Made by a program: the position numbers and the translations under genes. The notes under the pieces are model-generated. The model was not told the origin of the DNA and ran no database searches. It worked only from the letters and a program-made list of their open reading frames with translations. A DNA stretch of 61,398 nucleotides, the filler included, from Nemertoderma westbladi (Eukaryota; Animalia; Xenacoelomorpha), in assembly GCA_032718475.1 (NCBI GenBank). It is 3 parts of 3 records of this genome, joined end to end, with 100 filler letters (N's around TTAATTAATTAA, not from the genome) between each part and the next. Parts side by side here need not be neighbours in the genome. Positions count along the whole stretch, not along the records: positions 1 to 31,767 come from JAUCBJ010004102.1; 2 more parts are not named here. The stretch is one strand, 5' to 3'. Of the stretch, positions 10,059 to 39,299 are shown piece after piece; the first letter of the stretch is position 1, and each line of letters starts with the position of its first letter.

Positions 10059-10165
10059 GGGGATTCTGGTACATGATGGTACATCATGGGATTCTGTTAC
10101 ATATTATGGTACATAATGGGATTCTGGTACATATGATGGTACATCATGGGATTCTGGTACATATG
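10059..10165. repeat. ~29-30-bp minisatellite (GGGATTCTGGTACATATGATGGTACATCAT), ~3.5 copies
   Basis: Tandem copies read directly. Confidence 0.85.
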
Positions 10166-11574: not shown

Positions 11575-11939
11575 GAAAATAACTTATCTTTTATTGGCGC
11601 AATTGTAGGACTAATCCCATCACATGCGTTCTTTTTAACCGGGTAGTGTACAAATTTAAGAATCGCGTATTTTTTCTTGAAATTAATATCTCATATCTCT
11701 CCAAACCACGTACGCGTTTCGACCTTACTGGGTCTCATCAGCGTGGTGTCGGATTCGAACCTGGGACCTCGAGGTGGAAGCCGAGACTACAACCACAAGG
11801 TCACAGGTTCTTGAGATATGGAGTATTAATTTCAAAGCCAGCTGCCATTTTATTAGCCCCTGATTTTTTGATTATTGATAGTATCTGATATTGATGGGAT
11901 TAGTCCTACAATTGCGCCAATAAAAGATAAGTTATTTTC
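11575..11939. mobile_element. Inverted-repeat-bounded element (48-bp perfect IR) enclosing a tRNA-derived SINE head
   Basis: 11575-11622 gaaaataacttatc...cccatca is the reverse complement of 11892-11939. Confidence 0.75.
11745..11804 (-). mobile_element. tRNA-derived SINE head or tRNA pseudogene
   Basis: Minus strand reads gtgaccttgtggttgtagtctcggcttccacctcgaggtcccaGGTTCGAATCCgacacc: canonical B box, a TTCCA-containing anticodon-like loop, poor acceptor stem. Confidence 0.65.
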
Positions 11940-14900
11940 TAATTTACAGTAACGGTTAGTTCTAACTCATGTGGTTGTTCTAATTTACTGTAACAGTCAG
12001 TTCTAACTTATGTGGTTGTTCTAATTTACTGTAACAGTCAGTTCTAACTCATGTGGTTGTTCTAATTTACTGTAACAGTCAGTTCTAACTTATGTGGATG
12101 TTCTAATTTACTGTAACAGTTAGTTCTAACTCATGTGGTTGTTCTAATTTACTGTAACAGTCAGTTCTAACTTATGTGGTTGTTCTAATTTACTGAAACA
12201 GTCAGTTCTAACTTATGTGGATGTTCTAATTTACTGTAACAGTTAGTTCTAACTCATGTGGTTGTTCTAATTTACTGTAACAGTCAGTTCTAACTTATGT
12301 GGTTGTTCTAATTTACTGTAACAGTCAGTTCTAACTTATGTGGTTGTTCTAATTTACTGTAACAGTCAGTTCCAACTCATGTGGTTGTTCTAATTTACTG
12401 TAACAGTCAGTTCTAACTTATGTGGATGTTCTAATTTACTGTAACAGTTAGTTCTAACTCATGTGGTTGTTCTAATTTACTGTAACAGTCAGTTCTAACT
12501 TATGTGGTTGTTCTAATTTACTGTAACAGTCAGTTCTAACTCATGTGGTTGTTCTAATTTACTGTAACAGTCAGTTCTAACTCATGTGGTTGTTCTAATT
12601 TACTGTAACAGTCAGTTCTAACTTATGTGGATGTTCTAATTTACTGTAACAGTTAGTTCTAACTCATGTGGTTGTTCTAATTTACTGTAACAGTCAGTTC
12701 TAACTTATGTGGTTGTTCTAATTTACTGTAACAGTCAGTTCTAACTTATGTGGTTGTTCTAATTTACTGTAACAGTCAGTTCCAACTCATGTGGTTGTTC
12801 TAATTTACTGTAACAATCAGTTCTAACTCATGTGGTTGTTCTAATTTACTGTAACCGTCAGTTCTAACTCATGTGGTTGTTCTAATTTACTGTAACAGTC
12901 AGTTCTAACTTATGTGGTTATTCTAATTTACTGTAACAGTCAGTTCTAACTTATGTGGTTGTTCTAATTTATTGTAACAGTTAGCTCTAACTTATGTGGT
13001 TGTTCTAATTTACTGTAACAGTCAGTTCTAACTCAGGTGGTTGTTCTAATTTACTGTAACAGTCAGTTCTAACTTATGTGGATGTTCTAATTTACTGTAA
13101 CAGTCGGTTCTAACTTATGTGGTTGTTCTAATTTACTGTAACAGTCAGTTCCAACTCATGTGGTTGTTCTAATTTACTGTAACAGTCAGTTCTAACTCAT
13201 GTGGTTGTTCTAATTTACTGTAACAGTCAGTTCTAACTCATGTGGTTGTTCTAATTTACTGTAACAGTCAGTTCTAACTTATGTGGATGTTCTAATTTAC
13301 TGTAACAGTTAGTTCTAACTCATGTGGTTGTTCTAATTTACTGTAACAGTCAGTTCCAACTCATGTGGTTGTTCTAATTTACTGTAACAGTCAGTTCTAA
13401 CTTATGTGGATGTTCTAATTTACTGTAACAGTTAGTTCTAACTCATGTGGTTGTTCTAATTTACTGTAACAGTCAGTTCTAACTTATGTGGTTGTTCTAA
13501 TTTACTGTAACAGTCAGTTCTAACTCATGTGGTTGTTCTAATTTACTGTAACAGTCAGTTCTAACTCATGTGGTTGTTCTAATTTACTGTAACAGTCAGT
13601 TCTAACTTATGTGGATGTTCTAATTTACTGTAACAGTTAGTTCTAACTCATGTGGTTGTTCTAATTTACTGTAACAGTCAGTTCTAACTTATGTGGTTGT
13701 TCTAATTTACTGTAACAGTCAGTTCTAACTTATGTGGTTGTTCTAATTTACTGTAACAGTCAGTTCCAACTCATGTGGTTGTTCTAATTTACTGTAACAA
13801 TCAGTTCTAACTCATGTGGTTGTTCTAATTTACTGTAACCGTCAGTTCTAACTCATGTGGTTGTTCTAATTTACTGTAACAGTCAGTTCTAACTTATGTG
13901 GTTATTCTAATTTACTGTAACAGTCAGTTCTAACTTATGTGGTTGTTCTAATTTATTGTAACAGTTAGCTCTAACTTATGTGGTTGTTCTAATTTACTGT
14001 AACAGTCAGTTCTAACTCAGGTGGTTGTTCTAATTTACTGTAACAGTCAGTTCTAACTTATGTGGATGTTCTAATTTACTGTAACAGTCGGTTCTAACTC
14101 ATGTGGTTGTTCTAATTTACTGTAACAGTCAGTTCTAACTCATGTGGTTGTTCTAATTTACTGTAACAGTCAGTTCTAACTCATGTGGTTGTTCTAATTT
14201 ACTGTAACAGTCAGTTCTAACTCAGGTGGTTGTTCTAATTTACTGAAACAATCAGTTCTAACTTATGTGGTTGTTCTAATTTACTGTAACAGTCGGTTCT
14301 AACTCATGTGGTTGTTCTAATTTACTGTAACAGTCAGTTCTAACTCATGTGGTTGTTCTAATTTACTGTAACAGTCAGTTCTAACTCATGTGGTTGTTCT
14401 AATTTACTGTAACAGTCAGTTCTAACTCAGGTGGTTGTTCTAATTTACTGAAACAATCAGTTCTAACTTATGTGGTTGTTCTAATTTACTGTAACAGTCG
14501 GTTCTAACTCATGTGGTTGTTCTAATTTACTGTAACAGTCAGTTCTAACTCATGTGGTTGTTCTAATTTACTGTAACAGTCAGTTCTAACTCATGTGGTT
14601 GTTCTAATTTACTGTAACAGTCAGTTCTAACTCATGTGGTTGTTCTAATTTACTGTAACAGTCAGTTCTAACTCATGTGGTTGTTCTAATTTACTGTAAC
14701 AGTCAGTTCTAACTCAGGTGGTTGTTCTAATTTACTGAAACAATCAGTTCTAACTTATGTGGTTGTTCTAATTTACTGTAACAGTCGGTTCTAACTCATG
14801 TGGTTGTTCTAATTTACTGTAACAGTCAGTTCTAACTTATGTGGATGTTCTAATTTACTGTAACAGTCGGTTCTAACTCATGTGGTTGTTCTAATTTACT

Positions 14901-16846
14901 GTAACAGTCAGTTCTAACTCATGTGGTTGTTCTAATTTACTGTAACAGTCAGTTCTAACTCATGTGGTTGTTCTAATTTACTGTAACAGTCAGTTCTAAC
15001 TCAGGTGGTTGTTCTAATTTACTGAAACAATCAGTTCTAACTTATGTGGTTGTTCTAATTTACTGTAACAGTCGGTTCTAACTCATGTGGTTGTTCTAAT
15101 TTACTGTAACAGTCAGTTCTAACTCATGTGGTTGTTCTAATTTACTGTAACAGTCAGTTCTAACTCATGTGGTTGTTCTAATTTACTGTAACAGTCAGTT
15201 CTAACTTATGTGGATGTTCTAATTTACTGTAACAGTCAGTTCTAACTCATGTGGTTGTTCTAATTTACTGTAACAGTCAGTTCTAACTTATGTGGATGTT
15301 CTAATTTACTGTAACAGTCGGTTCTAACTCATGTGGTTGTTCTAATTTACTGTAACAGTCAGTTCTAACTCATGTGGTTGTTCTAATTTACTGTAACAGT
15401 CAGTTCTAACTCATGTGGTTGTTATAATTTACTGTAACAGTCAGTTCTAACTTATGTGGATGTTCTAATTTACTGTAACAGTCGGTTCTAACTCATGTGG
15501 TTGTTCTAATTTACTGTAACAGTCAGTTCTAACTCATGAGGTTGTTCTAATTTACTGTAACAGTCAGTTCTAACTCATGTGGTTGTTCTAATTTACTGTA
15601 ACAGTCGGTTCTAACTCATGTGGTTGTTCTAATTTACTGTAACAGTCAGTTCTAACTCATGTGGTTGTTCTAATTTACTGTAACAGTCAGTTCTAATTCA
15701 TGTGGTTGTTCTAATTTACTGTAACAGTCAGTTCTAACTCATGTGGTTGTTCTAATTTACTGTAACAGTCAGTTCTAACTCATGTGGTTGTTCTAATTTA
15801 CTGTAACAGTCAGTTCTAACTCAGGTGGTTGTTCTAATTTACTGAAACAATCAGTTCTAACTTATGTGGTTGTTCTAATTTACTGTAACAGTCGGTTCTA
15901 ACTCATGTGGTTGTTCTAATTTACTGTAACAGTCAGTTCTAACTCATGTGGTTGTTCTAATTTACTGTAACAGTCAGTTCTAACTCATGTGGTTGTTCTA
16001 ATTTACTGTAACAGTCAGTTCTAACTCATGTGGTTGTTCTAATTTACTGTAACAGTCAGTTCTAACTCATGTGGTTGTTCTAATTTACTGTAACAGTCAG
16101 TTCTAACTCAGGTGGTTGTTCTAATTTACTGAAACAATCAGTTCTAACTTATGTGGTTGTTCTAATTTACTGTAACAGTCGGTTCTAACTCATGTGGTTG
16201 TTCTAATTTACTGTAACAGTCAGTTCTAACTCATGTGGTTGTTCTAATTTACTGTAACAGTCAGTTCTAACTCATGTGGTTGTTCTAATTTACTGTTTCT
16301 AATTTACAGTAACAGTCAGTTCTAACTCATGTGGTTGTTCTAATTTACTGTAACAATCAGTTCTAACTTATGTGGTTGTTATAATTTACTGTAACAGTCA
16401 GTTCTAACTCATGTGGTTGTTCTAATTTACTGTAACAGTCAGTTCTAACTTATGTGGTTGTTCTAATTTACTGTAACAATCAGTTCTAACTTATGTGGTT
16501 GTTATAATTTACTGTAACAGTCAGTTCTAACTCATGTGGTTATTCTAATTTACTGTAACAGTCAGTTCTAACTTATGTGGTTGTTCTAATTTACTGTAAC
16601 AATTAGTTCTAACTTATGTGGTTGTTATAATTTACAGTAACAGTCAGTTCTAACTTATGTGGTTATTCTAATTTACTGTAACAGTCAGTTCTAACTTATG
16701 TGGTTGTTCTAATTTACTGTAACAATTAGTTCTAACTTATGTGGTTGTTATAATTTACTGTAACAGTCAGTTCTAACTCATGTGGTTGTTCTAATTTACT
16801 GTAACAGTCAGTTCTAACTCATGTGGTTATTCTAATTTACTGTAAT
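11937..16846. repeat. Satellite A: 41-bp unit CTGTAACAGTCAGTTCTAACT(C/T)ATGTGGTTGTTCTAATTTA, ~120 copies
   Basis: Period of 41 checked (ttctaac at 12001 and 12042). One detached unit lies at ~11411-11457. Confidence 0.98.
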
Positions 16847-17756
16847 GAACACTAACGAAACTATTCTGTTGAGGTTGCGGTACACTGTGGACATCCCCCC
16901 TCCCCCAGGGTTCTATGTACAGCCAATGGCCCATAACTTTGGTTCAAGTCGATATTATTAAATACTAGCTGACAATACCCGAGGCGGGTTACCCCGTATT
17001 TCCCGATAATTGTATTGCTAGCTAGGCTTACCTAATGCAGAATGTAGTACCATTAATGTGTACGGTAATTCAAAAAACCGAGCCGGTACCGGTTCCGCCA
17101 AAATTGGCAATAACCGGTACCGAACGTGAATTAAACTTTTCGAAAAGTGGCCTATAATGAGCGCTCTTAAAGTTATTCACACATGCCAAGTCCCAGCGCA
17201 ATCCCTCCGCCCGTTATGGGGGGAATTCGAGCACAACAGAGAAACTTATTGGAATTACACAAAAATATTAATAGATAGCGATAGGCCACCATACAGCTGG
17301 GATATAGGCGTTCAAGATGGCAAGAATTATCGTAGCTGCCTTTTATTCTATTTAACAAAAATATACACAACATTCTGGAATATTTTAATTATGTGTGTGT
17401 AGCTATACGCAATACAGATATTGTGTAGTCACATCGTCGTTGCCCATAGATATTCATGAGATATCTAAAACGTTCCAGAACGGTGTGTACTTATCAAATA
17501 TAATATGGCCTCCAAAGAACGAAAATTCTTGCAATCTTCGAACGCATATCAGCTGTTTTTCAACAAAATTCAGATATTGTTTGCAATTATTGCAAATCTT
17601 TCTAATTATATATAAAATAAAAATCACGACTAATGTGAAGAATGCCACGACATGGCGAGTGCAATGATCCCTGAACGGACAAACAGATAGGCCTATTAGC
17701 TACCGGTACCCTGGCGGATGCGTCCTTAAATTGGGCACAGATTTGCTAAGTCGGCA

Positions 17757-17844
17757 ATGACGTCCAGGTGGGATCGAACTGGTGACCTCCGGGTTGGAAG
17801 TCTGACACTCTAACCACCATTCAGCTAGTGGCTCAGGTAAAAGG
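17757..17844 (-). mobile_element. tRNA-derived SINE head, left inverted copy
   Basis: Near reverse complement of 18089-18179; contains GGATCGAAC, the reverse of the B box. Confidence 0.7.
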
Positions 17845-18088
17845 TAGACCTGGAAATACTTCATGATATGATGCCTTGTATGTCCGCAATTTACCTCCTC
17901 ATGGCCTCCCATCTGTCAATACCATAATTATACAATTATTAAAGAGTATGGGAACCAGGGGTCTATCTCCCTTTAAATCTTTAACTCCAAACTCTTTAAT
18001 AATTACAATGAACAACTCCCTTAAGACGGCGTGTCGGCAAACCCGATAATTATACAATATTATGTCAATACGTAGTATTTCCAAGTCT

Positions 18089-18179
18089 CCTTTTACCTGA
18101 GCCTGAGCAGCTAGCTGAATGGTTAGAGTATCAGACTTCCAACCCGGAGGTCACCAGTTCGATCCCACCTGGAAGTCAT
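18089..18179 (+). mobile_element. tRNA-derived SINE head, right copy
   Basis: A-box-like TAGCTGAATGGT, loop acttccaa, B-box-like GTTCGATCC. Confidence 0.7.
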
Positions 18180-18750
18180 AACTGACTTTGCCAAGCTGCG
18201 CCCAACAAAAGTTATAATAATATAAAAACCACCCATTCACACAAAACACCAACAAGACGTCCTTTAAACCAACCAGCTAACCGTAATCAGCAGTCAGCTC
18301 ACTGGAAGCTTCCATTCTGCGGTCAATCTATTCCAATTCCGAACGAAATGCGGTGCTAAACATAAGTTTGCAAAGCTACAAATATGACCGCAAATTACAC
18401 CAGTGTACAGTAGTATATGAACGCGGCAAGGATTACTTATAGCAAAGTTGTCCTAGGATCACGGTCATTGAACGTAGGCCATTATTAGTAAGAAAAAGTT
18501 GGATTAAAAAAAGTTGTATTATATACAACCAATGTAATTGAAGATAAAAGTCCTAGGAAAATAATAGTCCTTTGTTTCCACTTCCATTCATGTACATACA
18601 TCTAGTAATTGTAGGACAAATAAAAGAAAACACACTTAATTTAGAAACACCCGTTATAAATAGTTCCACCGGGACATTTAGTGAAATAATAATTAATTAT
18701 TACATAGGAATAAAAGTAGAAACTGCTCTTTCTAAAAATAATTAGAATAC

Positions 18751-18906
18751 AGAATAATTATTTATTGAATGGTAAATAACGTGGAACATATTTTCACTAT
18801 ACGCTCTCGATTCTTTATTAACCTCGTTACGCTCGGTAAATAAAATATCTCGAGTATAGTGAAAATAATGTTCTACATTATTTACCATGCAATAAATATT
18901 TATTCT
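18751..18906. mobile_element. Short fold-back (hairpin) element
   Basis: Imperfect palindrome: atttattgaatggtaaataa...ttttcactatac versus gtatagtgaaaa...ttatttaccatgcaataaat, with centre cctcgttacgctcgg. Confidence 0.7.
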
Positions 18907-19260
18907 TCATTTGGATGGAGTTTACAGCATTGGTAATAAAAAAAAAAAGGTTAGAATGTTTCAACATTGGTTCTCCATCCAGTTCTATTGTACAGATAGG
19001 ATTAGAAATTTGAAAAATACAATAAGATATTTTACAATTTTTTATCAAATACTAAAATTTCATCACAACTGATGGTATTTATAAATCATAGGTGCAGTGT
19101 TTTTTGGATTTTAATCCACTCCAGATAACAAAATTATATAAAACAACTTAAAATATCGAATTTTTAAAAGCATTCACACAATTTTGGAACAAACAGCCTC
19201 TCATCTCTCACTATATGCACTAATCTGTTGTTACCTGGCAACGTCGTTACTGGTACTTAC

Positions 19261-19455
19261 CCACATCCAACACGTCGCCCTTAGGTTGGTCTGCGTTCAC
19301 CGTTTGGTAAACGGAAGAGTAACTCTCCAATAGACCATCGACATTACGGTGATATTCAATGAGACGGGAAACGATCCCCTCAGAGTGGCTGTCCTCGACC
19401 AATCTCTGTTCAACTGACGGATCAGCTGGCCAATCAAACGTCGTATGGTACACGT
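19261..19455 (-). CDS. AK8: AK8-like exon (lid region to end of the first adenylate kinase domain), phase 1-1
   Basis: attag|AC GTG TAC... encodes (D)VYHTTFDWPADPSVEQRL...LIEYHRNVDGLLESYSSVYQTVNADQPKGDVLDV, then G|gtaagt. Matches recalled AK8 motifs YHTTFDWP, EYHRN and ADQP. Confidence 0.9.
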
Positions 19456-20374
19456 CTAATAGAGTAAAATATTAGAATTAGATATATAGCAAGTATATAA
19501 GTATATAAGTATATAAGTATAGTATATAATTAGAATATATAACGATTTAAAACGATACTGAAACTGTAACTTAAAATTATATTGAAATTTTTGTAACATT
19601 AATTTACAGATTTAATATACGTAAAAAAAACTTCACGATTTAAAATAAACAACTGTATGATTATCATATTTGTAATTTACGATGTACGCATTTCGGCCTC
19701 CCGGATAAAAAGAAAAAAATAATTATTTACAACCCGGCGGCAAAGACCCTCATAGACCAATTTAATACTTTCAAAATTTGTTTTGAATTTTGAAATTTTT
19801 GTAATTATTTCAGTAGATTATTTCAGTTATTCCACAGCAGTACCGGAATATTGTTAAAAGAAATTGAGAAAAATATACCGCTTACTGTAACTAGAATAAA
19901 CGCAATTCCACATTTTGAATAATCTCATATGGTAAACTGTAACTAAAATCGAATCAAGATGCGATAGCAAACTAAAGAGGTAACTGTAAGATAAATTATT
20001 TAGATTTTATTTCAGTTACAACAATTTTTGTTCGGTTAAATGGGGCATTGGAGATATCGGGGAGAAATAGGAAAAAAACTACCGCAACTAAACAAACTCG
20101 GGTGCCGTATAAGATATTGAATTGATTAAGTAAATTATATACTTAACGTGACGTCAAAAATGAAATTAGAATCCAAAGATGCTTATTGAGCAATAAAAAA
20201 AACCACAAAAAAAAATAAAAAACACAAATCCGCGGCAAAAAAACATAAGAATTAAAAAACACAGATCGCCTGCAAAATATAAAAAATAATTAAGACCAAT
20301 AAATTAAAACCCGGCTAATTATTCTAAAACATTGATTCACAAATATTAAAACATTCGATAATAACATAACTAAC

Positions 20375-20528
20375 CCCCAGTCTCGGGGTCTACCCTTTTG
20401 CCTTCTTGTCTCTCGACAAGAACGCTATCCGGAGCTTCTAGAAGTACTACATGCTTCGCTAAGATACCAATCCTCTGAAGGGCTTGAGCTTCAGGGCGTG
20501 AGTGAGGCATACCGTCGAGCAACCAACC
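20375..20528 (-). CDS. AK8: AK8-like exon, phase 0-1 (not called as such in the ORF track)
   Basis: ttttag|GGTTGG... 154 nt encodes GWLLDGMPHSRPEAQALQRIGILAKHVVLLEAPDSVLVERQEGKRVDPETG, then G|gttagt. Contains the adenylate kinase GWxLDGxP motif and the AK8-type APDxVLxERxxGKRxDPxTG motif. Confidence 0.92.
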
Positions 20529-20600
20529 CTAAAACATACCGGTAATGAGTTAGGTATAAGGATAGTAAACAAAACATAGAACAGGATGAGTTAGGTATAA

Positions 20601-21214
20601 GGGGCCGTGCACAAATGATGCCACGCTTTTTTTTGACGATTTTCGACCACCCCCCCCCCCCCCCCCTCCCCCCTCTGTCACAATCTGTCACGAATATTGT
20701 AACCCCCATCCCCCCTTGAACGTCACGTCACAAAAAAAACCCAGTATAGTTAATAAAAACTGTTAAATTTTAAATTATTTTGTTATTAAAACTAAATGTT
20801 AAAACTTCATTAATTCAGCTGTACACAATGACTAAACAAAGTAAGACACCCCACATAATCACTCCCATGGGAATGACGACATCTTAGTGGACAAGTGGAC
20901 CAGGTATACGATCGACTATTGTGCCACTTCCTGGGTCTAACTCTACCTCGTCCTTATCTACCCAGTCAATGTGATGTCCTTCATCTTTATCGCCACTTAG
21001 AATTAACACTTTATCACCTCGATTCGCGATTACTTGAATAGATTTCACTTTGGCTGTTGATGTTGGTGTTATGTATTTTATTTGTTCACCAAAGTGCTAT
21101 TGTGACGTCACAAGTATAGCAACCCCCCCCCCCCCCGCCCCCATGTCAGAAATTATCACAAAATTGCCAACCCCATCTCCCCCTTCGACTGTGACATTAT
21201 TTATGCACGGCCCC
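20601..21214. mobile_element. PIF/Harbinger-type MITE
   Basis: TIRs GGGGCCGTGCA...TGCACGGCCCC with a 3-bp TAA target duplication (20598-20600, 21215-21217). Inserted into the ggtaTAAggtac site of a satellite B unit. Confidence 0.88.
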
Positions 21215-24200
21215 TAAGGTACAATAACCAACCCTGAAACAGAATGAGTTAGGTATAAGGTACAATAACCAACCCTGAAACAGAATGAGTTAGGTATAAG
21301 GTACAATAACCAACCCTAAAACAGAATGAGTTAGGTATAAGGTACAACAACCAACCCTAAAACAGAATGAGTTAGGTATAAGGTACAACAACCAACCCTA
21401 AAACAGAATGAGTTAGGTATAAGGTACAACAACCAACCCTAAAACAGAATGAGTTAGGTATAAGGTACAATAACCAACCCTAAAACAGAATGAGTTAGGT
21501 ATAAGGTACAATAACCAACCCTAAAACAGAATGAGTTAGGTATAAGGTACAATAACCAACCCTAAAACAGAATGAGTTAGGTATAAGGTACAACAACCAA
21601 CCCTAAAACAGAATGAGTTAGGTATAAGGTACAACAACCAACCCTAAAACAGAATGAGTTAGATATAAGGTACAATAACCAACCCTAAAAGAGAATGAGT
21701 TAGGTATAAGGTACAACAACCAACCCTAAAACAGAATGAGTTAGGTATAAGGTACAACAACCAACCCTAAAACAGAATGAGTTAGGTAAGGTACAATAAC
21801 CAACCCTAAAACAGAATGAGTTAGGTATAAGGTACAATAACCAACCCTAAAACAGAATGAGTTAGGTATAAGGTACAATAACCAACCCTAAAACAGAATG
21901 AGTTAGGTATAAGGTACAACAACCAACCCTAAAACAGAATGAGTTAGGTATAAGGTACAATAACCAACCCTAAAACAGAATGAGTTAGGTATAAGGTACA
22001 ACAACCAACCCTAAAACAGAATGAGTTAGGTATAAGGTACAACAACCAACCCTAAAACAGAATGAGTTAGGTATAAGGTACAATAACCAACCCTAAAACA
22101 GAATGAGTTAGGTATAAGGTACAATAACCAACCCTAAAACAGAATGAGTTAGGTATAAGGTACAATAACCAACCCTAAAACAGAATGAGTTAGGTATAAG
22201 GTACAACAACCAACCCTAAAACAGAATGAGTTAGGTATAAGGTACAACAACCAACCCTAAAACAGAATGAGTTAGATATAAGGTACAATAACCAACCCTA
22301 AAAGAGAATGAGTTAGGTATAAGGTACAACAACCAACCCTAAAACAGAATGAGTTAGGTATAAGGTACAACAACCAACCCTAAAACAGAATGAGTTAGGT
22401 AAGGTACAATAACCAACCCTAAAACAGAATGAGTTAGGTATAAGGTACAATAACCAACCCTAAAACAGAATGAGTTAGGTATAAGGTACAATAACCAACC
22501 CTAAAACAGAATGAGTTAGGTATAAGGTACAACAACCAACCCTAAAACAGAATGAGTTAGGTATAAGGTACAATAACCAACCCTAAAACAGAATGAGTTA
22601 GGTATAAGGTACAACAACCAACCCTAAAACAGAATGAGTTAGGTATAAGGTACAACAACCAACCCTAAAACAGAATGAGTTAGGTATAAGGTACAACAAC
22701 CAACCCTAAAACAGAATGAGTTAGGTATAAGGTACAACAACCAACCCTGAAACAGAATGAGTTAGGTATAAGGTACAATAACCAACCCTAAAACAGAATG
22801 AGTTAGGTATAAGGTACAACAACCAACCCTAAAACAGAATGAGTTAGGTATAAGGTACAACAACCAACCCTAAAACAGAATGAGTTAGGTATAAGGTACA
22901 ATAACCAACCCTAAAACAGAATGAGTTAGGTATAAGGTACAATAACCAACCCTAAAACAGAATGAGTTAGGTATAAGGTACAATAACCAACCCTAAAACA
23001 GAATGAGTTAGGTATAAGGTACAACAACCAACCCTAAAACAGAATGAGTTAGGCATAAGGTACAATAACCAACCCTAAAACAGAATGAGTTAGGTATAAG
23101 GTACAATAACCAACCCTAAAACAGAATGAGTTAGGTATAAGGTACAATAACCAACCCTAAAACAGAATGAGTTAGGTATAAGGTACAACAACCAACCCTA
23201 AAACAGAATGAGTTAGATATAAGGTACAATAACCAACCCTAAAAGAGAATGAGTTAGGTATAAGGTACAACAACCAACCCTAAAACAGAATGAGTTAGGT
23301 ATAAGGTACAACAACCAACCCTAAAACAGAATGAGTTAGGCATAAGGTACAATAACCAACCCTAAAACAGAATGAGTTAGGTATAAGGTACAACAACCAA
23401 CCCTAAAACAGAATGAGTTAGGTATAAGGTACAATAACCAACCCTAAAACAGAATGAGTTAGGTATAAGGTACAATAACCAACCCTAAAACAGAATGAGT
23501 TAGGTATAAGGTACAACAACCAACCCTAAAACAGAATGAGTTAGGTATAAGGTACAACAACCAACCCTAAAACAGAATGAGTTAGGTATAAGGTACAATA
23601 ACCAACCCTAAAACAGAATGAGTTAGGTATAAGGTACAATAACCAACCCTAAAAGAGAATGAGTTAGGTATAAGGTACAACAACCAACCCTAAAACAGAA
23701 TGAGTTAGGTATAAGGTACAATAACCAACCCTAAAACAGAATGAGTTAGGTATAAGGTACAATAACCAACCCTAAAAGAGAATGAGTTAGGTATAAGGTA
23801 CAACAACCAACCCTAAAACAGAATGAGTTAGGTATAAGGTACAACAACCAACCCTAAAACAGAATGAGTTAGGTAAGGTACAATAACCAACCCTAAAACA
23901 GAATGAGTTAGGTATAAGGTACAACAACCAACCCTAAAACAGAATGAGTTAGGTATAAGGTACAACAACCAACCCTAAAACAGAATGAGTTAGGTATAAG
24001 GTACAACAACCAACCCTAAAACAGAATGAGTTAGGTATAAGGTACAACAACCAACCCTAAAACAGAATGAGTTAGGTAAGGTACAATAACCAACCCTAAA
24101 AGAGAATGAGTTAGGTATAAGGTACAACAACCAACCCTAAAACAGAATGAGTTAGGTATAAGGTACAACAACCAACCCTAAAACAGAATGAGTTAGGTAA

Positions 24201-27200
24201 GGTACAATAACCAACCCTAAAACAGAATGAGTTAGGTATAAGGTACAACAACCAACCCTAAAACAGAATGAGTTAGGTATAAGGTACAATAACCAACCCT
24301 AAAACAGAATGAGTTAGGTATAAGGTACAACAACCAACCCTAAAACAGAATGAGTTAGGTACAAGGTACAACAACCAACCCTAAAACAGAATAAGTTAGG
24401 CATAAGGTACAATAACCAAAACCAACCCTAAAACAGAATGAGTTAGGTATAAGGTACAACAACCAACCCTAAAACAGAACGAGTTAGGTATAAGGTACAA
24501 CAACCAACCCTAAAACAGAATGAGTTAGGTATAAGGTACAACAACCAACCCTAAAACAGAATGAGTTAGGTAAGGTACAATAACCAACCCTAAAACAGAA
24601 TGAGTTAGGTATAAGGTACAATAACCAACACTAAAACAGAATGAGTTAGGTATAAGGTACAACAACCAACCCTAAAACAGAATAAGTTAGGTATAAGGTA
24701 CAACAACCAACCCTAAAACAGAATGAGTTAGGTATAAGGTACAATAACCAACCCTAAAACAGAATGAGTTAGGTATAAGGTACAACAACCAACCCTAAAA
24801 CAGAATGAGTTAGGTATAAGGTACAACAACCAACCCTAAAACAGAATGAGTTAGGTATAAGGTACAACAACCAACCCTAAAACAGAATGAGTTAGGTATA
24901 AGGTACAACAACCAACCCTAAAACAGAATGAGTTAGGTATAAGGTACAACAACCAACCCTAAAACAGAATGAGTTAGGTATAAGGTACAATAACCAACCG
25001 AAAACATAATGAGTTAGGCATAAGGTACAATAACCAACCCTTAAACAGAATGAGTTAGGTATAAGGTACAATAACCAACCCTCAAACAGAATGAGTTAGG
25101 TATAAGGTACAACAACCAACCCTAAAACAGAATGAGTTAGGTATAAGGTACAACAACCAACCCTAAAACAGAATGAGTTAGGTATAAGGTACAACAACCA
25201 ACCCTAAAACAGAATGAGTTAGGTATAAGGTACAACAACCAACCCTAAAACAGAATGAGTTAGGTATAAGATACAACAACCAACCCTAAAACAGAATGAG
25301 TTAGGGATAAGGTACAATAACCAACCCTAAAACAGAATGATTTAGGTATAAGGTACAATAACCAACCCTAAAACAGAATGAGTTAGGTATAAGGTACAAT
25401 AACCAACCCTAAAACATAATGAGTTAGGTATAAGGTACAACAACCAACCCTAAAACAGAATAAGTTAGGCATAAGGTACAATAACCAAAACCAACCCTAA
25501 AACAGAATGAGTTAGGTACAAGGTACAACAACCAACCCTAAAACAGAATAAGTTAGGCATAAGGTACAATAACCAAAACCAACCCTAAAACAGAATGAGT
25601 TAGGTACAAGGTACAACAACCAACCCTACAACATAATGAGTTAGGCATAAGGTACAATAACCAACCCTTAAACAGAATGAGTTAGGTATAAGGTACAACA
25701 ACCAACCCTAAAACAGAATGAGTTAGGTACAAGGTACAACAACCAACCCTTAAACAGAATGAGTTAGGTATAAGGTACAACAACCAACCCTAAAACAGAA
25801 TGAGTTAGGTATAAGGTACAACAACCAACCCTAAAACAGAATAAGTTAGGCATAAGGTACAATAACCAAAACCAACCCTAAAACAGAATGAGTTAGGTAC
25901 AAGGTACAACAACCAACCCTAAAACATAATGAGTTAGGCATAAGGTACAATAACCAACCCTTAAACAGAATGAGTTAGGTATAAGGTACAACAACCAACC
26001 CTAAAACAGAATGAGTTAGGTATAAGGTACAATAACCAACCCTAAAACAGAATGAGTTAGGTATAAGGTACAACAACCAACCCTAAAACAGAATGAGTTA
26101 GGTATAAGGTACAACAACCAACCCTAAAACAGAATGAGTTAGGTATAAGGTACAATAACCAACCCTAAAACAGAATGAGTTAGGTATAAGATACAATAAC
26201 CAACCCTAAAACAGAATGAGTTAGGTATAAGGTACAACAACCAACCCTAAAACAGAATGAGTTAGGTATAAGGTACAATAACCAACCCTAAAACAGAATG
26301 AGTTAGGTATAAGGTACAATAACCAACCCTAAAACAGAATGAGTTAGGGATAAGGTACAATAACCAACCCTAAAACAGAATGAGTTAGGTATAAGGTACA
26401 ACAACCAACCCTAAAACAGAATGAGTTAGGTATAAGGTACAACAACCAACCCTAAAACAGAATGAGTTAGGTATAAGGTACAATAACCAACCCTAAAACA
26501 GAATGAGTTAGGGATAAGGTACAATAACCAACCCTAAAACAGAATGATTTAGGTATAAGGTACAATAACCAACCCTAAAACAGAATGAGTTAGGTATAAG
26601 GTACAATAACCAACCCTAAAACAGAATGAGTTAGGTATAAGGTACAATAACCAACCCTAAAACAGAATGAGTTAGGTATAAGGTACAATAACCAACCCTA
26701 AAACAGAATGATTTAGGTATAAGGTACAATAACCAACCCTAAAACAGAATGAGTTAGGTATAAGGTACAATAACCAACCCTAAAACAGAATGAGTTAGGT
26801 ATAACGTACAATAACCAACCCTAAAACAGAATGAGTTAGGTATAAGGTACAATAACCAACCCTAAAACAGAATGAGTTAGGTATAAGGTACAATAACCAA
26901 CCCTAAAACAGAATGAGTTAGGTATAAGGTACAACAACCAACCCTAAAACAGAATGAGTTAGGCATAAGGTACAATAACCAACCCTAAAACAGAATGAGT
27001 TAGGTATAAGGTACAATAACCAACCCTAAAACAGAATGAGTTAGGTATAAGGTACAATAACCAACCCTAAAACAGAATGAGTTAGGTATAAGGTACAATA
27101 ACCAACCCTAAAACAGAATGAGTTAGGTATAAGGTACAATAACCAACCCTAAAACAGAATGAGTTAGGTATAAGGTACAACAACCAACCCTAAAACAGAA

Positions 27201-30200
27201 TGAGTTAGGTATAAGGTACAATAACCAACCCTAAAACAGAATGAGTTAGGTATAAGGTACAATAACCAACCCTAAAACAGAATGAGTTAGGTATAAGGTA
27301 CAATAACCAACCCTAAAACAGAATGAGTTAGGTATAAGGTACAATAACCAACCCTAAAACAGAATGAGTTAGGTATAAGGTACAACAACCAACCCTAAAA
27401 CAGAATGAGTTAGGCATAAGGTACAATAACCAACCCTAAAACAGAATGAGTTAGGTATAAGGTACAATAACCAACCCTAAAACAGAATGAGTTAGGTATA
27501 AGGTACAATAACCAACCCTAAAACAGAATGAGTTAGGTATAAGGTACAATAACCAACCCTAAAACAGAATGAGTTAGGTATAAGGTACAATAACCAACCC
27601 TAAAACAGAATGAGTTAGGTATAAGGTACAACAACCAACCCTAAAACAGAATGAGTTAGGTATAAGGTACAATAACCAACCCTAAAACAGAATGAGTTAG
27701 GTATAAGGTACAATAACCAACCCTAAAACAGAATGAGTTAGGTATAAGGTACAATAACCAACCCTAAAACAGAATGAGTTAGGTATAAGGTACAATAACC
27801 AACCCTAAAACAGAATGAGTTAGGTATAAGGTACAATAACCAACCCTAAAACAGAATGAGTTAGGTATAAGGTACAACAACCAACCCTAAAACAGAATGC
27901 AGTTAGGGATAAGGTACAATAACCAACCCTAAAACAGAATGAGTTAGGTATAAGGTACAACAACCAACCCTAAAACAGAATGAGTTAGGTATAAGGTACA
28001 ATAACCAACCCTAAAACAGAATGAGTTAGGTATAAGGTACAATAACCAACCCTAAAACAGAATGAGTTAGGTATAAGGTACAACAACCAACCCTAAAACA
28101 GAATGAGTTAGGTATAAGGTACAATAACCAACCCTAAAACAGAATGAGTTAGGTATAAGGTACAACAACCAACCCTAAAACAGAATGAGTTAGGTAAGGT
28201 ACAATAACCAACCCTAAAACAGAATGAGTTAGGTATAAGGTACAATAACCAACCCTAAAACAGAATGAGTTAGGTATAAGGTACAACAACCAACCCTAAA
28301 ACAGAATGAGTTAGGTATAAGGTACAATCCAACCAACCCTAAAACAGAATGAGTTAGGTATAAGGTACAACAACCAACCCTAAAACAGAATGAGTTAGGT
28401 ATAAGGTACAATAACCAACCCTAAAACAGAATGAGTTAGGTATAAGGTACAACAACCAACCCTAAAACAGAATGAGTTAGGTATAAGGTACAATAACCAA
28501 CCCTAAAACAGAATGAGTTAGGTATAAGGTACAACAACCAACCCTAAAACAGAATGAGTTAGGTATAAGGTACAACAACCAACCCTAAAACAGAATGAGT
28601 TAGGTATAAGGTACAACAACCAACCCTAAAACAGAATGAGTTAGGTATAAGGTACAACAACCAACCCTAAAACAGAATGAGTTAGGTATAAGGTACAATC
28701 AACCAACCCTAAAACAGAATGAGTTAGGTATAAGGTACAACAACCAACCCTAAAACAGAATGAGTTAGGTATAAGGTACAATAACCAACCCTAAAACAGA
28801 ATGAGTTAGGTATAAGGTACAACAACCAACCCTAAAACAGAATGAGTTAGGTATAAGGTACAATAACCAACCCTAAAACAGAATGAGTTAGGTATAAGGT
28901 ACAACAACCAACCCTAAAACAGAATGAGTTAGGTATAAGGTACAATAACCAACCCTAAAACAGAATGAGTTAGGTATAAGGTACAACAACCAACCCTAAA
29001 ACAGAATGAGTTAGGTATAAGGTACAATAACCAACCCTAAAACAGAATGAGTTAGGTATAAGGTACAACAACCAACCCTAAAACAGAATGAGTTAGGTAT
29101 AAGGTACAACAACCAACCCTAAAACAGAATGAGTTAGGTATAAGGTACAACAACCAACCCTAAAACAGAATGAGTTAGGTATAAGGTACAACAACCAACC
29201 CTAAAACAGAATGAGTTAGGTATAAGGTACAACAACCAACCCTAAAACAGAATGAGTTAGGTATAAGGTACAATAACCAACCCTAAAACAGAATGAGTTA
29301 GGTATAAGGTACAACAACCAACCCTAAAACAGAATGAGTTAGGTATAAGGTACAATAACCAACCCTAAAACAGAATGAGTTAGGTATAAGGTACAACAAC
29401 CAACCCTAAAACAGAATGAGTTAGGTATAAGGTACAATAACCAACCCTAAAACAGAATGAGTTAGGTATAAGGTACAACAACCAACCCTAAAACAGAATG
29501 AGTTAGGTATAAGGTACAACAACCAACCCTAAAACAGAATGAGTTAGGTATAAGGTACAACAACCAACCCTAAAACAGAATGAGTTAGGTATAAGGTACA
29601 ATAACCAACCCTAAAACAGAATGAGTTAGGTATAAGGTACAATAACCAACCCTAAAACAGAATGAGTTAGGTATAAGGTACAACAACCAACCCTAAAACA
29701 GAATGAGTTAGGTATAAGGTACAACAACCAACCCTAAAACAGAATGAGTTAGGTATAAGGTACAATAACCAACCCTAAAACAGAATGAGTTAGGTATAAG
29801 GTACAACAACCAACCCTAAAACAGAATGAGTTAGGTATAAGGTACAATAACCAACCCTAAAACAGAATGAGTTAGGTATAAGGTACAACAACCAACCCTA
29901 AAACAGAATGAGTTAGGTATAAGGTACAATAACCAACCCTAAAACAGAATGAGTTAGGTATAAGGTACAATAACCAACCCTAAAACAGAATGAGTTAGGT
30001 ATAAGGTACAATAACCAACCCTAAAACAGAATGAGTTAGGTATAAGGTACAACAACCAACCCTAAAACAGAATGAGTTAGGTATAAGGTACAATAACCAA
30101 CCCTAAAACAGAATGAGTTAGGTATAAGGTACAACAACCAACCCTAAAACAGAATGAGTTAGGTATAAGGTACAACAACCAACCCTAAAACAGAATGAGT

Positions 30201-30966
30201 TAGGTATAAGGTACAACAACCAACCCTAAAACAGAATGAGTTAGGTATAAGGTACAACAACCAACCCTAAAACAGAATGAGTTAGGTATAAGGTACAACA
30301 ACCAACCCTAAAACAGAATGAGTTAGGTATAAGGTACAATAACCAACCCTAAAACAGAATGAGTTAGGTATAAGGTACAATAACCAACCCTAAAACAGAA
30401 TGAGTTAGGTATAAGGTACAATAACCAACCCTAAAACAGAATGAGTTAGGTATAAGGTACAACAACCAACCCTAAAACAGAATGAGTTAGGTATAAGGTA
30501 CAATAACCAACCCTAAAACAGAATGAGTTAGGTATAAGGTACAATAACCAACCCTAAAACAGAATGAGTTAGGTATAAGGTACAACAACCAACCCTAAAA
30601 CAGAATGAGTTAGGTATAAGGTACAATAACCAACCCTAAAACAGAATGAGTTAGGTATAAGGTACAATAACCAACCCTAAAACAGAATGAGTTAGGTATA
30701 AGGTACAACAACCAACCCTAAAACAGAATGAGTTAGGTATAAGGTACAACAACCAACCCTAAAACAGAATGAGTTAGGTATAAGGTACAACAACCAACCC
30801 TAAAACAGAATGAGTTAGGTATAAGGTACAATAACCAACCCTAAAACAGAATGAGTTAGGTATAAGGTACAACAACCAACCCTAAAACAGAATGAGTTAG
30901 GTATAAGGTACAACAACCAACCCTAAAACAGAATGAGTTAGGTATAAGGTACAACAACCAACCCTA
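21215..30966. repeat. Satellite B: 41-bp unit AAGGTACAA(T/C)AACCAACCCTAAAACAGAATGAGTTAGGTAT, ~237 copies, inside an AK8 intron
   Basis: Homogeneous tandem array, ~9750 bp / 41. Degenerate units at 20520-20600 overlap the exon boundary. Confidence 0.98.
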
Positions 30967-31202
30967 CATTTAAAAATATTTCATAAAATACTCCAAGATA
31001 CTATGATAAAAAAAAGTAGCACTTTCTTTAGACTTTACTTATGTTAACATCACTTTCGGGGTGCCCGATTGTTTCTACTCTACTGGCAGAGCGACGCGAG
31101 ACAAGTAAAATAAAGTGCTGTTCTCGAATAAAATGTAGGTGAATAATAAGTCATTTATAAAGTGAAATCTATATACTACAGAACTAATGTAGATTAACCC
31201 AC

Positions 31203-31385
31203 TCGCTTTACGCAATCGTCGCATTCAATTCGATTTTTAACAAGATCAGCCCAAACTTCGGGTGGAACTTCTTTGCCGCTCTCAATAAGTTCCTTCGCAT
31301 CCTCTCCGGTATCAGTGGCATCGTCCGCCAAGATTGTCTCCCGTGTAAGGTAAACAGTTCGCAATCGTTTACATATAAGTCGAGA
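31203..31385 (-). CDS. AK8: AK8-like exon, phase 0-0 (not in the ORF track)
   Basis: gacag|TCT... 183 nt encodes SRLICKRLRTVYLTRETILADD...KEVPPEVWADLVKNRIECDDCVKR, then |gtgggt. Joins in frame to GWLLDG (compare recalled AK8 ...EEDCIKQ-GWILDG). Confidence 0.88.
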
Positions 31386-31767: not shown

Positions 31768-31867
31768 NNNNNNNNNNNNNNNNNNNNNNNNNNNNNNNNN
31801 NNNNNNNNNNNTTAATTAATTAANNNNNNNNNNNNNNNNNNNNNNNNNNNNNNNNNNNNNNNNNNNN
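31768..31867. other. Assembly gap with artificial TTAATTAATTAA linker
   Basis: N-run, then ttaattaattaa, then N-run; the second gap has the same structure. Confidence 0.95.
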
Positions 31868-34656: not shown

Positions 34657-37600
34657 CTATAAATCTAGTCCATCACTGTGAAGTTTGTCAAGGATAGCCG
34701 CCTCAAAATGCTCTGCATCTTTTTTCCCATGTATCTCCACGAAATCAATGAACACTTCTTTAATAGTGGCTTTCTTTGTTTCGTAATCAATATCGACAAA
34801 CCGTAGTACTTCAGACAACTGTTCCTTGTGTGAAACATCCGGAGTTGTGTCAAACATCATTCCGTAATACTGTTCAGTTTTTATCTTGTTTATAATCGAT
34901 GAACGTACCTCGCTACCGAACAGTTTAATGACTTCATTTTGTATTTGTGTAGATAGAAATGACGTTGCAAAGGGATGACTTTTGACATACTCTAGGTCTA
35001 GGTGTTCTCTCATGACATTGTCATAGCGACTCAGCAACTTCACAAGAGCTAAAATGTTTCCTGGGTTCTCGATTGAATCAACATCTTCTCTATGGCCATG
35101 AAAAGATAGATTTTGCATTGCCCAAGTTTTCATACAGTCCATTAATCTTTTCAAAATTTACCTCCATCTCGCCTTTGATGCTTCCAACTGAGAAAGGGTC
35201 TCATCTTGGATTGTTTTGCCTTCGTTAAGACGTCGTTCTAGTTCCTTCCACTTCAGAAATGCTTCTACATGACATTTCCCATTTTCATGCTCTGGAATCT
35301 TTTCATTCAGTTTTTTCCAATTGTTGAAGCCACTGGGAAATTGAAACACATTCCGTCTGTTTTCACTGCAAGTTGAACATAACAGACAACAGAAACAAAA
35401 GGCAGCGTCCTGTTTCGGTGAATATAGTAACCATTTTCTAGGCACAGTGCATCCCGTGGGGAAACAATTGTCTTTTGAAACCAAAAGTTCGTGAAGCACC
35501 TATTTTGGATTATTTTGAATGGCCCAGTTTTTTTTTCAAACTCTTCCGATGCAAGTTGAACCATTCGAATTCGTGGACGGTACAGTGAAGTGGCACTGGT
35601 TGCCACGGAAGAAGTAGCGCTGGTTGCCACAGTGGCAGTGGCACTGGTTGCCACGGTAGAAGTAGCGCTGGTTGCCACAGTGGCAGTGGCACTGGGTGTC
35701 ACGGTAGAAGTAGCGCTGGTTGCCACAGTGGCAGTGGCACTGGTTGCCACGGTAGAAGTAGCGCTGGTTGCCACAGTGGCAGTGGCACTGCTGGTTGCCA
35801 CTATAGAAGTAGCGCTGGTTGCCACAGTGGCAGTGGCACTGGGTGTCACGGTAGAAGTAGCGCTGGTTGCCACGTTGGCAGTGGCACTGGTTGCCACAGT
35901 GGCAGTGGCACTGGTTGCCGCAGTGGAAGTAGCGCTGGTTGCCACAGTGGCAGTGGCACTGGTTGCCGCAGTGGAAGTAGCGCTGGTTGCCACAGTAGCA
36001 GTGGCACTGGGTGCCACGGTAGAAGTAGAGCTGGTTGCCACAGTAGCAGTGGCACTGGTTGCCACGGTAGAAGTAGCGCTGGTTGCCACAGTGGCAGTGG
36101 CGCTGGTTGCTACGGTAGAAGTAGCGCTGGTTGCCACAGTGGCAGTGGCATTGGTTGCCACGGTAGAAGTGGCGCTGGTTGCCACAGTGGAAGTGGCACT
36201 GGTTGCCACAGTGGCAGTGGCACTGGTTGCCGCAGTAGAAGTAGCGCTGGGTGCCACAGTAGCAGTGGCACTGCTGGTTGCCACTATAGAAGTAGCGCTG
36301 GTTGCCACAGTGGCAGTGGCGCTGGTTGCTACGGTAGAAGTAGCGCTGGTTGCCACAGTGGAAGTGGCGCTGGTTGCCACAGTGGCAGTGGCACTGCTGG
36401 TTGCCACTATAGAAGTAGCGCTGGTTGCCACAGTGGCAGTGGCACTGGGTGTCACGGTAGAAGTAGCGCTGGTTGCCACGTTGGCAGTGGCACTGGTTGC
36501 CACAGTGGCAGTGGCACTCGTTGCCGCAGTGGAAGTGGCGCTGGTTGCCACAGTGGCAGTGGCACTGCTGGTTGCCACTATAGAAGTAGCGCTGGTTGCC
36601 ACAGTAGCAGTGGCACTGCTGGTTGCCACTATAGAAGTAGCGCTGGTTGCCACAGTGGCAGTGGCACTGCTGGTTGCCACTATAGAAGTAGCGCTGGTTG
36701 CCACAGTGGCAGTGGCACTGGGTGTCACGGTAGAAGTAGCGCTGGTTGCCACGTTGGCAGTGGCACTGGTTGCCACAGTGGCAGTGGCACTGCTGGTTGC
36801 CACTATAGAAGTAGCGCTGGTTGCCACAGTGGCAGTGGCGCTGGTTGCTACGGTAGAAGTAGCGCTGGTTGCCACAGTGGAAGTGGCGCTGGTTGCCACA
36901 GTGGCAGTGGCACTGCTGGTTGCCACTATAGAAGTAGCGCTGGTTGCCACAGTGGCAGTGGCGCTGGTTGCTACGGTAGAAGTAGCGCTGGTTGCCACAG
37001 TGGCAGTGGCATTGGTTGCCACGGTAGAAGTGGCGCTGGTTGCCACAGTGGCAGTGGCACTGGTTGCCGCAGTGGAAGTGGCACTGGTTGCCACAGTGGC
37101 AGTGGCACTGGTTGCCACGGTAGAAGTAGCGCTGGTTGCCACAGTGGCAGTGGCACTGGTTGACGCAGTGGCAGTGGCACTGGTTGCCACAGTGGAAGTG
37201 GCACTGGTTGCCACGGTAGAAGTAGCGCTGGTTGCCACAGTGGAAGTGGCACTGGTTGCCGCTGTGGCACTGGCACTGGTTGCCACAGTGGCAGTGGCAC
37301 TGGTTGCCGCAGTAGAAGTAGCGCTGGTTGCCACAGTAGCAGTGGCGCCGGTTGCCACAGTGGCAGTGGCACTGGGTGTCACGGTAGAAGTAGCGCTGGT
37401 TGCCGCAGTAGAAGTAGCGCTGGTTGCCACAGTAGCAGTGGCGCCGGTTGCCACAGTGGCAGTGGCACTGGGTGTCACGGTAGAAGTAGCGCTGGTTGCC
37501 ACAGTGGCAGTGGCACTGGGTGTCACGGTAGAAGTAGCGCTGGTTGCCACAGTGGAAGTGGCACTGGTTGCCGCAGTGGCAGTGGCACTGGTTGCCACGG

Positions 37601-38837: not shown

Positions 38838-39299
38838 TTTATTTATTAAACATATTATTAGTTAACCATAAAATAATATTGCTTATATACAAATATCATT
38901 AGAGGTTCCAGAATACTTGAAATCGAATAACTTGAAATTGAGGGTGATGCAAAATATAACACTGTACCAGAATGATATAACTTTATATAAATGCAATCAA
39001 AGCAATACACTACTATACAGCATAAACCAATCACGGTGCAGCTTGTGTTTCACAACACCTGACTGGGGGTGGGGAGCATGCCCAATAATAAATATCGGAG
39101 TTTGTCCTGTGTTGTCTCCAGCTTCAAGTGATTTCGTCACACTCACAATGGGGGTATCACCCCCCATACCGCACCATGCCCTCGAACATAGTGTTGTTAT
39201 TCAGTTTGAATTATTATATAATAATAAAATATAATTAATATATATTCATTCGGTATTCATTATTGAGCCAGAATATTTCATATTTTTCCATACAAACTA

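What the first reader, a model, noticed from the sequence alone, without database searches (positions are those of the whole stretch)
20520..30966. A 9.7-kb intronic satellite whose monomer is the host intron's own 3' splice site
Seen: on the AK8 sense (minus) strand each 41-bp unit reads cttataCCTAACtcattctgTTTTAG|GGTTGGTT(g/a)ttgtac. The true acceptor at 20529/20528 reads cttataCCTAACtcattaccggtatgTTTTAG|GGTTGGTTGCTC (Gly-Trp-Leu). About 91% of the 10.7-kb intron (31202-20529) is therefore ~237 tandem decoy acceptors, each with a consensus-like branch point (yUnAy) and the first 8-9 exon nt. Inference: because those nt encode the conserved GW of the GWxLDG motif, the array probably arose by amplification of the intron/exon junction. 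The spliceosome must skip, or process through, hundreds of near-perfect sites.
Basis: partly seen in the sequence, partly recalled or inferred. Interest (0 to 1): 0.9.

Follow-up and report, generated by a model that had tools for sequence, protein, structure and literature searches.

The report
Giant exon-derived splice-junction "mirage" satellite
An intron of an animal's adenylate kinase 8 gene is 91% filled by about 237 copies of a 41-base unit that was likely copied from the start of the next exon, and the one transcript seen uses only the last, real junction; this is an unusually large case of a known repeat type (a "mirage"), and the working splice signal itself likely began as protein-coding sequence.

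Summary
The array is real: 21215-30966, 237.5 x 41 bp, 91% of a 10,674-nt AK8 intron, 237 AGs, 229 with CCTAAC upstream. A spliced contig from one public run joins 31203 to 20528, confirming the junction; whether that animal carries the array is not shown. Corrections: (1) a 614-bp MITE and one AG-less unit separate the array from the working acceptor; (2) the unit is mostly exon, not intron: read from its AG it matches the exon's first 33 nt without gaps (24/33; 15/24 beyond the first nine, p about 5e-5). So the branch-point motif is likely the exon's Pro-His codons, and the AG at the array's 5' edge (30964) is likely the ancestral acceptor of a 239-nt intron. Exon definition, branch-point spacing (-16 in decoys, -22 real) and early stops behind all 237 decoys likely keep splicing correct; none was tested. 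The class is known: amphioxus "mirages", human F7 and CBS junction repeats. This scan noted it before in eight findings on other genomes (up to about 105 copies). New here: size, and an acceptor rebuilt from exon sequence. Interest 0.42.

The parts
31203..31385 (-). AK8 coding exon upstream of the intron (ends ...Asp-Cys-Val-Lys-Arg, phase 0)
   Evidence: tblastn; HMM iE 6e-13; Pfam ADK; loose end of spliced contig equals 31203-31232
30964..31202 (-). Unique 5' part of the intron (239 nt): donor GTGGGT at 31202 and an AT-rich end ...TAG at 30964, likely the ancestral acceptor
   Evidence: sequence (edge analysis). Ancestral role is inferred
21215..30966 (-). Tandem array, 237.5 x 41 bp; each unit = about 33 nt diverged copy of the exon start + about 8 nt ending in AG; most variable in units 91-180, with 7- and 15-unit higher-order blocks
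   Evidence: high monomer depth in runs X1 and X3
20601..21214 (.). 614-bp MITE inserted into a repeat unit; 25-nt inverted arms, TTA target duplication (PIF/Harbinger-like by recall, not tested); high-copy in the genome
   Evidence: summed contig depth mostly hundreds to tens of thousands against 11-23 for single-copy DNA
20561..20600 (-). Degenerate unit next to the working acceptor; AG changed to AT; all 11 differences lie in its last 25 nt
   Evidence: 0/16 vs 11/25, Fisher p 0.003, split chosen after looking; 20563-20593 identical in a second sample's contig (X3 record 19)
20529..20560 (-). Working acceptor: CCTAAC (branch A predicted at 20550, -22), a TACCGGTA-type spacer that decoys lack, TTTTAG
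   Evidence: use of the site shown; branch point predicted only
20375..20528 (-). AK8 exon (154 nt) starting Gly-Trp-Leu-Leu-Asp-Gly-Met-Pro-His-Ser-Arg; source of the repeat unit; donor GTTAGT at 20374
   Evidence: covered without differences by spliced contig X4 record 25
19261..19455 (-). Next AK8 exon, after a 919-nt GT-AG intron
   Evidence: joint 19455/20375

Best explanation
This is a very large acceptor-side 'mirage' minisatellite: a tandem array of about 237 units fills the AK8 intron, the unit likely arose by duplication of a short segment made of the exon's first 33 or so bases and the last few intron bases, and the one transcript seen splices to the last copy, likely because only that copy is close enough to the next donor to be defined as an exon. 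Inferred history: (1) the intron was about 239 nt and ended at the AG now at 30964; (2) a junction-spanning tandem duplication gave a second AG whose upstream 30 nt were exon codons that already held a yUnAy motif (CCT CAC), so the downstream AG could take over and the redundant copy was spliced out; (3) the now intronic copy drifted about 27% from the exon (CCTCAC to CCTAAC, five of the G's at unit positions 10-33 lost) and was amplified and homogenised (96%), growing the intron about 45-fold; (4) the copy next to the working site lost its AG, a 6-nt spacer moved the working branch point to -22, and a MITE landed one unit upstream. Decoy use is likely suppressed by exon definition (154-nt exon versus 859 nt or more), by the short -16 branch spacing, and wrong products would carry early stops and likely be degraded. 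The array is most likely tolerated clutter, not a control element. Shown: anatomy, junction use, exon similarity, stops. Inferred: order of events, ancestral acceptor, mechanism of choice.
For: Junction used: X4 contig (1,186 nt, depth 189.5) covers 20375-20528 and its loose end is the 31203 exon end. Exon origin: in the register fixed by AG|GGTTGGTTG, 15 of 24 further bases match (shuffle p 5.5e-5; dinucleotide shuffle 1 of 60,000) and 16 of 32 with no chosen end point (p 4.9e-4; 4 of 60,000); the other 40 cyclic registers give 3-11 of 32. The unit still translates G-W-L-L-x-x-I-P-x-S, keeping the Pro found in 119 of 120 homologs and the Ser that this exon shares with only 3 of 120. The array's 5' edge begins at TAG after unique AT-rich sequence, as a tandem duplication with a short intron part predicts. 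All 237 decoys give an in-frame stop within 7-63 codons. Nearest intact repeat decoy would make an 859-nt exon. Most mammalian branch points lie 18-37 nt upstream (PMC8531310, passages). Array is in reads: monomer-part depth about 246x single-copy in X1 and 121x in X3, a different study. Same architecture and normal splicing are reported for amphioxus mirages and distal-site use for CBS 844ins68.
Against: A position-free gapped alignment of unit bases 10-41 to the exon start is only p 0.008, and an unrelated exon start scored higher (24 vs 22, p 0.04), so the case rests on the fixed register. The proposed ancestral acceptor is weak today: 8 of 17 pyrimidines, no CTRAY motif. The RNA-like run X4 shows no monomer contigs, so it is not shown that this animal carries the array. 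Contigs drop rare forms, so decoy use was not measured. X2, the same sample as X3, gives only about 12x. Depth of contigs is not a copy number. X1 may be the source of the assembly. The -16 versus -22 argument uses mammalian data. No relative without the array was found.
Confidence: 0.8

Rival explanations
1. One reading: the unit is the intron's own older branch point and pyrimidine tract (32 nt) plus 9 exon bases; the further likeness to the exon is chance and the 5' edge is a random truncation.
For: The working acceptor and the unit share 26 intronic bases exactly apart from the spacer; position-free alignment beyond base 9 is only p 0.008 and a control exon start scored higher; the 5' edge is a poor acceptor today.
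Against: Fixed-register match p 5e-5 to 5e-4 and far above all 40 other registers; codons for Pro and the lineage-specific Ser are kept in frame; this model predicts that the array starts with the branch-point part, but it starts at TAG|GGTTGG.
Confidence: 0.09
2. The array has a splicing role: decoys feed regulated unproductive splicing (early stop, decay) or stepwise removal of the long intron, so that copy number tunes AK8 output.
For: 236 of about 237 units keep an AG and 229 keep CCTAAC; each AG is followed by G|GTTGGT, one base from the real donor GTTAGT; copy number may differ between samples.
Against: Retention is expected from recent homogenisation; the donor-like GT lies one base after the AG, so stepwise splicing would leave an extra base and shift the frame; the only RNA form seen is the direct junction; amphioxus mirages are reported not to disturb splicing.
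Confidence: 0.06
3. The monomer is an unrelated dispersed satellite that inserted at the end of the intron and resembles the junction by chance.
For: A second 41-bp array lies 4.4 kb away and shares the 9-mer CTAACTCAT; the whole genome could not be searched.
Against: 24 of 33 bases match a conserved exon in frame; the two arrays are not significantly alike (p 0.11 and 0.07); no monomer 20-mer with up to 3 mismatches elsewhere in the window.
Confidence: 0.03
4. The long array is an assembly artefact that inflates a few copies.
For: The first 54 units are almost invariant; X2 depth ratio is only about 12; the window is pieced together with linkers.
Against: Depth ratios of about 246 (X1) and 121 (X3); ordered rare variants and 7- and 15-unit blocks in the middle and 3' parts.
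Confidence: 0.02

Closest known systems
Amphioxus 'mirage' minisatellites: globin BflGb6 and BflGb9 (PMC3087553; passages and supplement 4 read), PGBD5 (PMC3902484; passages), Adh3 (Canestro et al. 2002; not held, known only as cited in those papers)
   Same: Tandem units span an intron/exon boundary; BflGb6 is the acceptor side (intron end plus exon start); many units keep AG; edge units escape homogenisation; unit number differs between haplotypes; normal mRNA is made.
   Different: Copy number 237 against 2-7 in the two papers read (Adh3 counts not seen); BflGb6 units carry about 50 intron nt with their own pyrimidine tract and a near-intact exon part, whereas here at most about 8 nt are intronic and the signals are likely converted codons; the animal is not Branchiostoma lanceolatum (AK8 51% identical).
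Human F7 intron-7 37-bp VNTR (PMC1557585; abstract and Discussion read)
   Same: Short VNTR whose end unit spans the junction; five to nine identical sites, only the exon-proximal one is used; pseudo-sites are functional when the real one is removed.
   Different: Donor side, about 30 times fewer copies, identical to the real site; tested by minigenes, which this locus is not.
Human CBS 844ins68 (PMC2630376; passages read)
   Same: Duplication of an intron end plus exon start; the downstream site is favoured and the redundant exon copy is spliced out.
   Different: Two copies only, recent and undiverged.
Intron birth by tandem duplication, Rogers model, ATP2A1 (PMC3265369; passages read)
   Same: Duplicated coding sequence supplies a pyrimidine tract and a YTNAY branch motif and becomes intron.
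   Different: There a new intron forms at an AGGT; here an existing intron's 3' end is likely rebuilt and then amplified.

Membership tests
Mirage minisatellite | Head-to-tail repeats whose unit spans an intron/exon boundary of the host gene | tested here: met
Mirage minisatellite | Many units keep the splice dinucleotide | tested here: met
   237 AGs, 232 YAG
Mirage minisatellite | Regular mRNA is still made from the authentic site | tested here: met
   One spliced contig, one run; array not shown in that animal; rare forms invisible
Mirage minisatellite | Concerted evolution inside the cluster, edge units excluded | tested here: met
   96% matches; edge unit 11 of 41 different
Mirage minisatellite | Length differs between alleles | tested here: inconclusive
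   Depth ratios 246, 121, 12 are not copy numbers; two runs of one sample disagree
Mirage minisatellite | Somatic instability (reported for Adh3) | not testable with these tools
   No raw reads were listed
Recursive splice site | AG directly followed by a donor GT (zero-length exon) | tested here: not met
   AG is followed by G then GT in the unit; definition recalled
Dispersed satellite family | Monomer at several unlinked loci | tested here: inconclusive
   None elsewhere in the window; no genome held
AK8 (host gene) | Exons match AK8 homologs in order and frame | tested here: met
   HMM of 120 AK8 homologs, columns 74-134, 135-185, 186-250, iE 6e-13 to 6e-22

The most novel reading that the evidence does not exclude
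A conserved exon's working branch point and pyrimidine tract are its own converted codons: the ancestral acceptor is stranded 10.4 kb upstream, the intron grew 45-fold from 239 nt by amplifying the exon start, and selection has since tuned the 3' end (AG lost in the adjacent copy, a 6-nt spacer, and a MITE in one allele or possibly an AG-less sub-array in another) to keep 236 decoys silent. It would be a natural, polymorphic test of acceptor choice and a caught-in-the-act route to rebuilding a splice site and inflating an intron.
Probability: 0.35. Interest if true: 0.62.

Novelty: new variant of a known kind. Interest (0 to 1): 0.42.

Why it matters
It extends mirages from a handful of copies to a 10-kb satellite in a non-amphioxus animal and shows how far acceptor choice tolerates decoys. 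If the exon origin holds, it is a clear case of coding sequence turned into a working 3' splice signal, and a route to intron growth that needs no transposon. It also warns gene predictors: the first AG after the donor gives a plausible Gly-Trp-Leu-Leu start followed by a stop. No function for the array is shown.

Tried and rejected
RNA structure as the discriminator: rejected; the real AG is predicted as paired (unpaired 0.03-0.08) as the decoys tested (0.01-0.44), 3 decoys of 237 folded. Recursive splicing: GT offset by one base. Kinship of the two 41-bp arrays: p 0.11 and 0.07. The second array as a mirage of AK8: no further AK8 exon in 1-19260. A 47-nt ancestral unit: the spacer matches the exon at only 4 of 9 bases and TACCGGTA is common in this window (12 seen, 0.5 expected), so an insertion is preferred. 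Rare unit variants 21G and 16G equal the exon state, but 2 of 17 variant types is near chance. No whole genome is held. No RNA holder listed; X4 is filed as DNA but is spliced. Public reads on the donor side were not obtained, so donor-to-decoy junctions are unexamined. Metagenome scan gave 22 loci at 38-57% identity, not used. Protocadherin search did not place the animal (best hits 27-34%); AK8 is at most 53% identical to 120 homologs. Canestro et al. 2002 is not held. Paper searches showed no junction array of this size in their listings; that is weak, since most subscription papers are missing. Own-genome and look-alike look-ups of earlier notes were empty.

Full report
Host gene. Three exons on the minus strand (31203-31385, 20375-20528, 19261-19455) match consecutive parts of AK8: tblastn with a sponge AK8, an HMM of 120 AK8 homologs (columns 74-134, 135-185, 186-250), Pfam ADK for the first two (below cut-off). 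The animal is not closely placed: at most 53% identity to the 120 homologs, 51% to Branchiostoma lanceolatum. No whole genome is held.

The junction is real. Six public runs were listed and none is on record as RNA. Four were laid on 19200-21260. Run X4 behaves as RNA: a 1,186-nt contig (depth 189.5) covers both exons without differences, skips the 919-nt GT-AG intron, and its loose end behind 20528 is letter for letter window 31203-31232, which occurs once in the window. So donor 31202 is joined to 20528. Limits: one contig of one run; contigs drop rare forms; X4 shows no monomer depth (0.6 left after the MITE share), so that animal's array is not shown.

The array. TRF gives 21215-30966, period 41, 237.5 copies, 96% matches: 9,752 of 10,674 intron bases. 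It holds 237 AGs (236 in units plus the 5' edge), 232 YAG, 229 with CCTAAC in front. Units 1-54 vary only at one position; units 91-180 are the most varied; rare variants recur at lags of 7 and 15 units. Depth on the monomer part of the last bin is about 246 times single-copy depth in X1 (possibly the assembly's source), 121 in X3 (another study; allele differs at 11 bases and 2 gaps in 478) and only 12 in X2, the same sample as X3. These are not copy numbers, but they argue against an artefact.

Correction 1: the array does not reach the acceptor. A 614-bp MITE (20601-21214; 25-nt arms, 88% complementary; TTA on both sides) sits inside a unit. Below it is one unit with 11 of 41 differences, all in its last 25 bases, including AG to AT, then the working acceptor with a 6-nt longer spacer. 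X3's single-copy contig has the same AG-less sequence over 20563-20593 and the same acceptor. The MITE brings its own AGs from 97 nt upstream; I did not score them.

Correction 2: the unit is mostly exon. Read from the base after its AG, the unit matches the exon start without gaps at 24 of 33 bases. Beyond the first nine, 15 of 24 match (base shuffle p 5.5e-5; 24 of 101,312 window positions reach 15). With no chosen end point it is 16 of 32 (p 4.9e-4; dinucleotide shuffle 4 of 60,000); the other 40 registers give 3-11. The unit translates G-W-L-L-Y-L-I-P-N-S-F against the exon's G-W-L-L-D-G-M-P-H-S-R; Pro is in 119 of 120 homologs, Ser in only 3 of 120. Against: a position-free gapped alignment is only p 0.008 and a control exon start scored higher. 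The branch motif CCTAAC lines up with the exon's CCT CAC (Pro-His), itself a yUnAy. At the 5' edge the array starts at TAG after unique AT-rich sequence, 239 nt from the donor. A tandem duplication of a few intron bases plus the exon start predicts just this: the first copy keeps the old upstream context, the last keeps the exon. The edge is a weak acceptor now (8 of 17 pyrimidines, no CTRAY), so its ancestral role is inferred, not shown.

How the last site is likely chosen (inference). The real exon is 154 nt; the nearest intact repeat decoy (AG at 21234) would give 859 nt. The CCTAAC branch A is at -16 in decoys and -22 at the real site; the acceptor at 19456 has candidates at -17 and -23; most bovine and human branch points lie 18-37 nt upstream (PMC8531310, passages). 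All 237 decoys run into a stop within 7-63 codons, so errors would likely be degraded. RNA folding does not separate real from decoy. Stepwise splicing is unlikely because the donor-like GT is one base after the AG. Whether the AG loss and spacer were selected is open; the clustering of changes (p 0.003) used a split chosen after looking and could also come from conversion between neighbours.

Unexplained. X3 has a contig (depth 457) that loops from 20602 back to 20562, and depth 696 over 20511-20579 where X1 has 17. This hints at a tandem of AG-less units next to the acceptor in another allele. X2, the same sample, does not show it, and I could not see the contig.

Comparison with what is known. 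Tandem repeats across exon borders are 'mirages' in amphioxus: BflGb6 is the acceptor-side type with 6 and 3 units, length-unstable, with normal splicing (PMC3087553, passages and supplement 4); PGBD5 has 2-7 (PMC3902484, passages). The Adh3 paper was not held. Human F7 is the donor-side mirror with five to nine sites (PMC1557585, abstract and Discussion). CBS 844ins68 is a two-copy acceptor case with distal use (PMC2630376, passages). ATP2A1 shows duplicated coding sequence supplying a tract and branch motif (PMC3265369, passages). This locus meets the mirage features that I could test. It differs in size and in having at most about 8 intronic bases per unit, against about 50 in BflGb6. Earlier AI notes of this scan list eight similar findings in other genomes, with about 3 to 105 copies where given; they are unchecked and I had reached the mirage reading before seeing them.

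Verdict. A real, well-supported feature; a new variant of a known kind. The size is extreme and the exon-derived acceptor is the new point. No function is shown. Interest 0.42.

Noticed in passing
window 11937-16845: A second 41-bp tandem array (about 120 copies), not significantly like the first. By eye it too is cut off from a lone copy (about 11410-11460) by an element with long inverted ends (about 11575-11936). The same period twice in 20 kb is unexplained.
   Followed up: partly
window 3630-7184 (+): Single-ORF protocadherin-like gene (six cadherin domains) on the opposite strand; since no further AK8 exon lies in 1-19260, it is likely nested in an AK8 intron of over 19 kb.
   Followed up: partly
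window 31768-31867 and 48669-48768: Identical joins of 44 N, a 12-base all-frame stop linker and 44 N: the window is three pieces, and neighbours across them may not be linked.
   Followed up: yes
window 20562-20602, run X3: A contig of depth 457 loops back over the AG-less unit, hinting at an AG-less sub-array in another allele; absent from X2 of the same sample.
   Followed up: partly
window 34657-38861 (-): A 24-bp array (128 copies, 35582-38685) keeps a 1,184-codon Thr/Ala/Ser-rich ORF open at the front of a broken transposase-like gene (hAT-like by recall, not tested).
   Followed up: no
whole window outside the arrays: The palindrome TACCGGTA occurs 12 times against 0.5 expected; one instance forms the spacer of the working acceptor. 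Source unknown.
   Followed up: partly
window 46215-46730, 55184-55774, 56148-58010 (+): Long uninterrupted ORFs that look like an RNase P subunit p29, an ARL5-type GTPase and an RNA methyltransferase with a 15-bp Pro/Thr repeat (labels from recall, not tested).
   Followed up: no
window 47458-48117 and 58705-59307 (-): Two near-identical fragments of a reverse-transcriptase-type element (label from recall).
   Followed up: no
run X4: Filed as DNA but its contig is spliced and unique intron parts have no depth: it behaves as an RNA run.
   Followed up: yes
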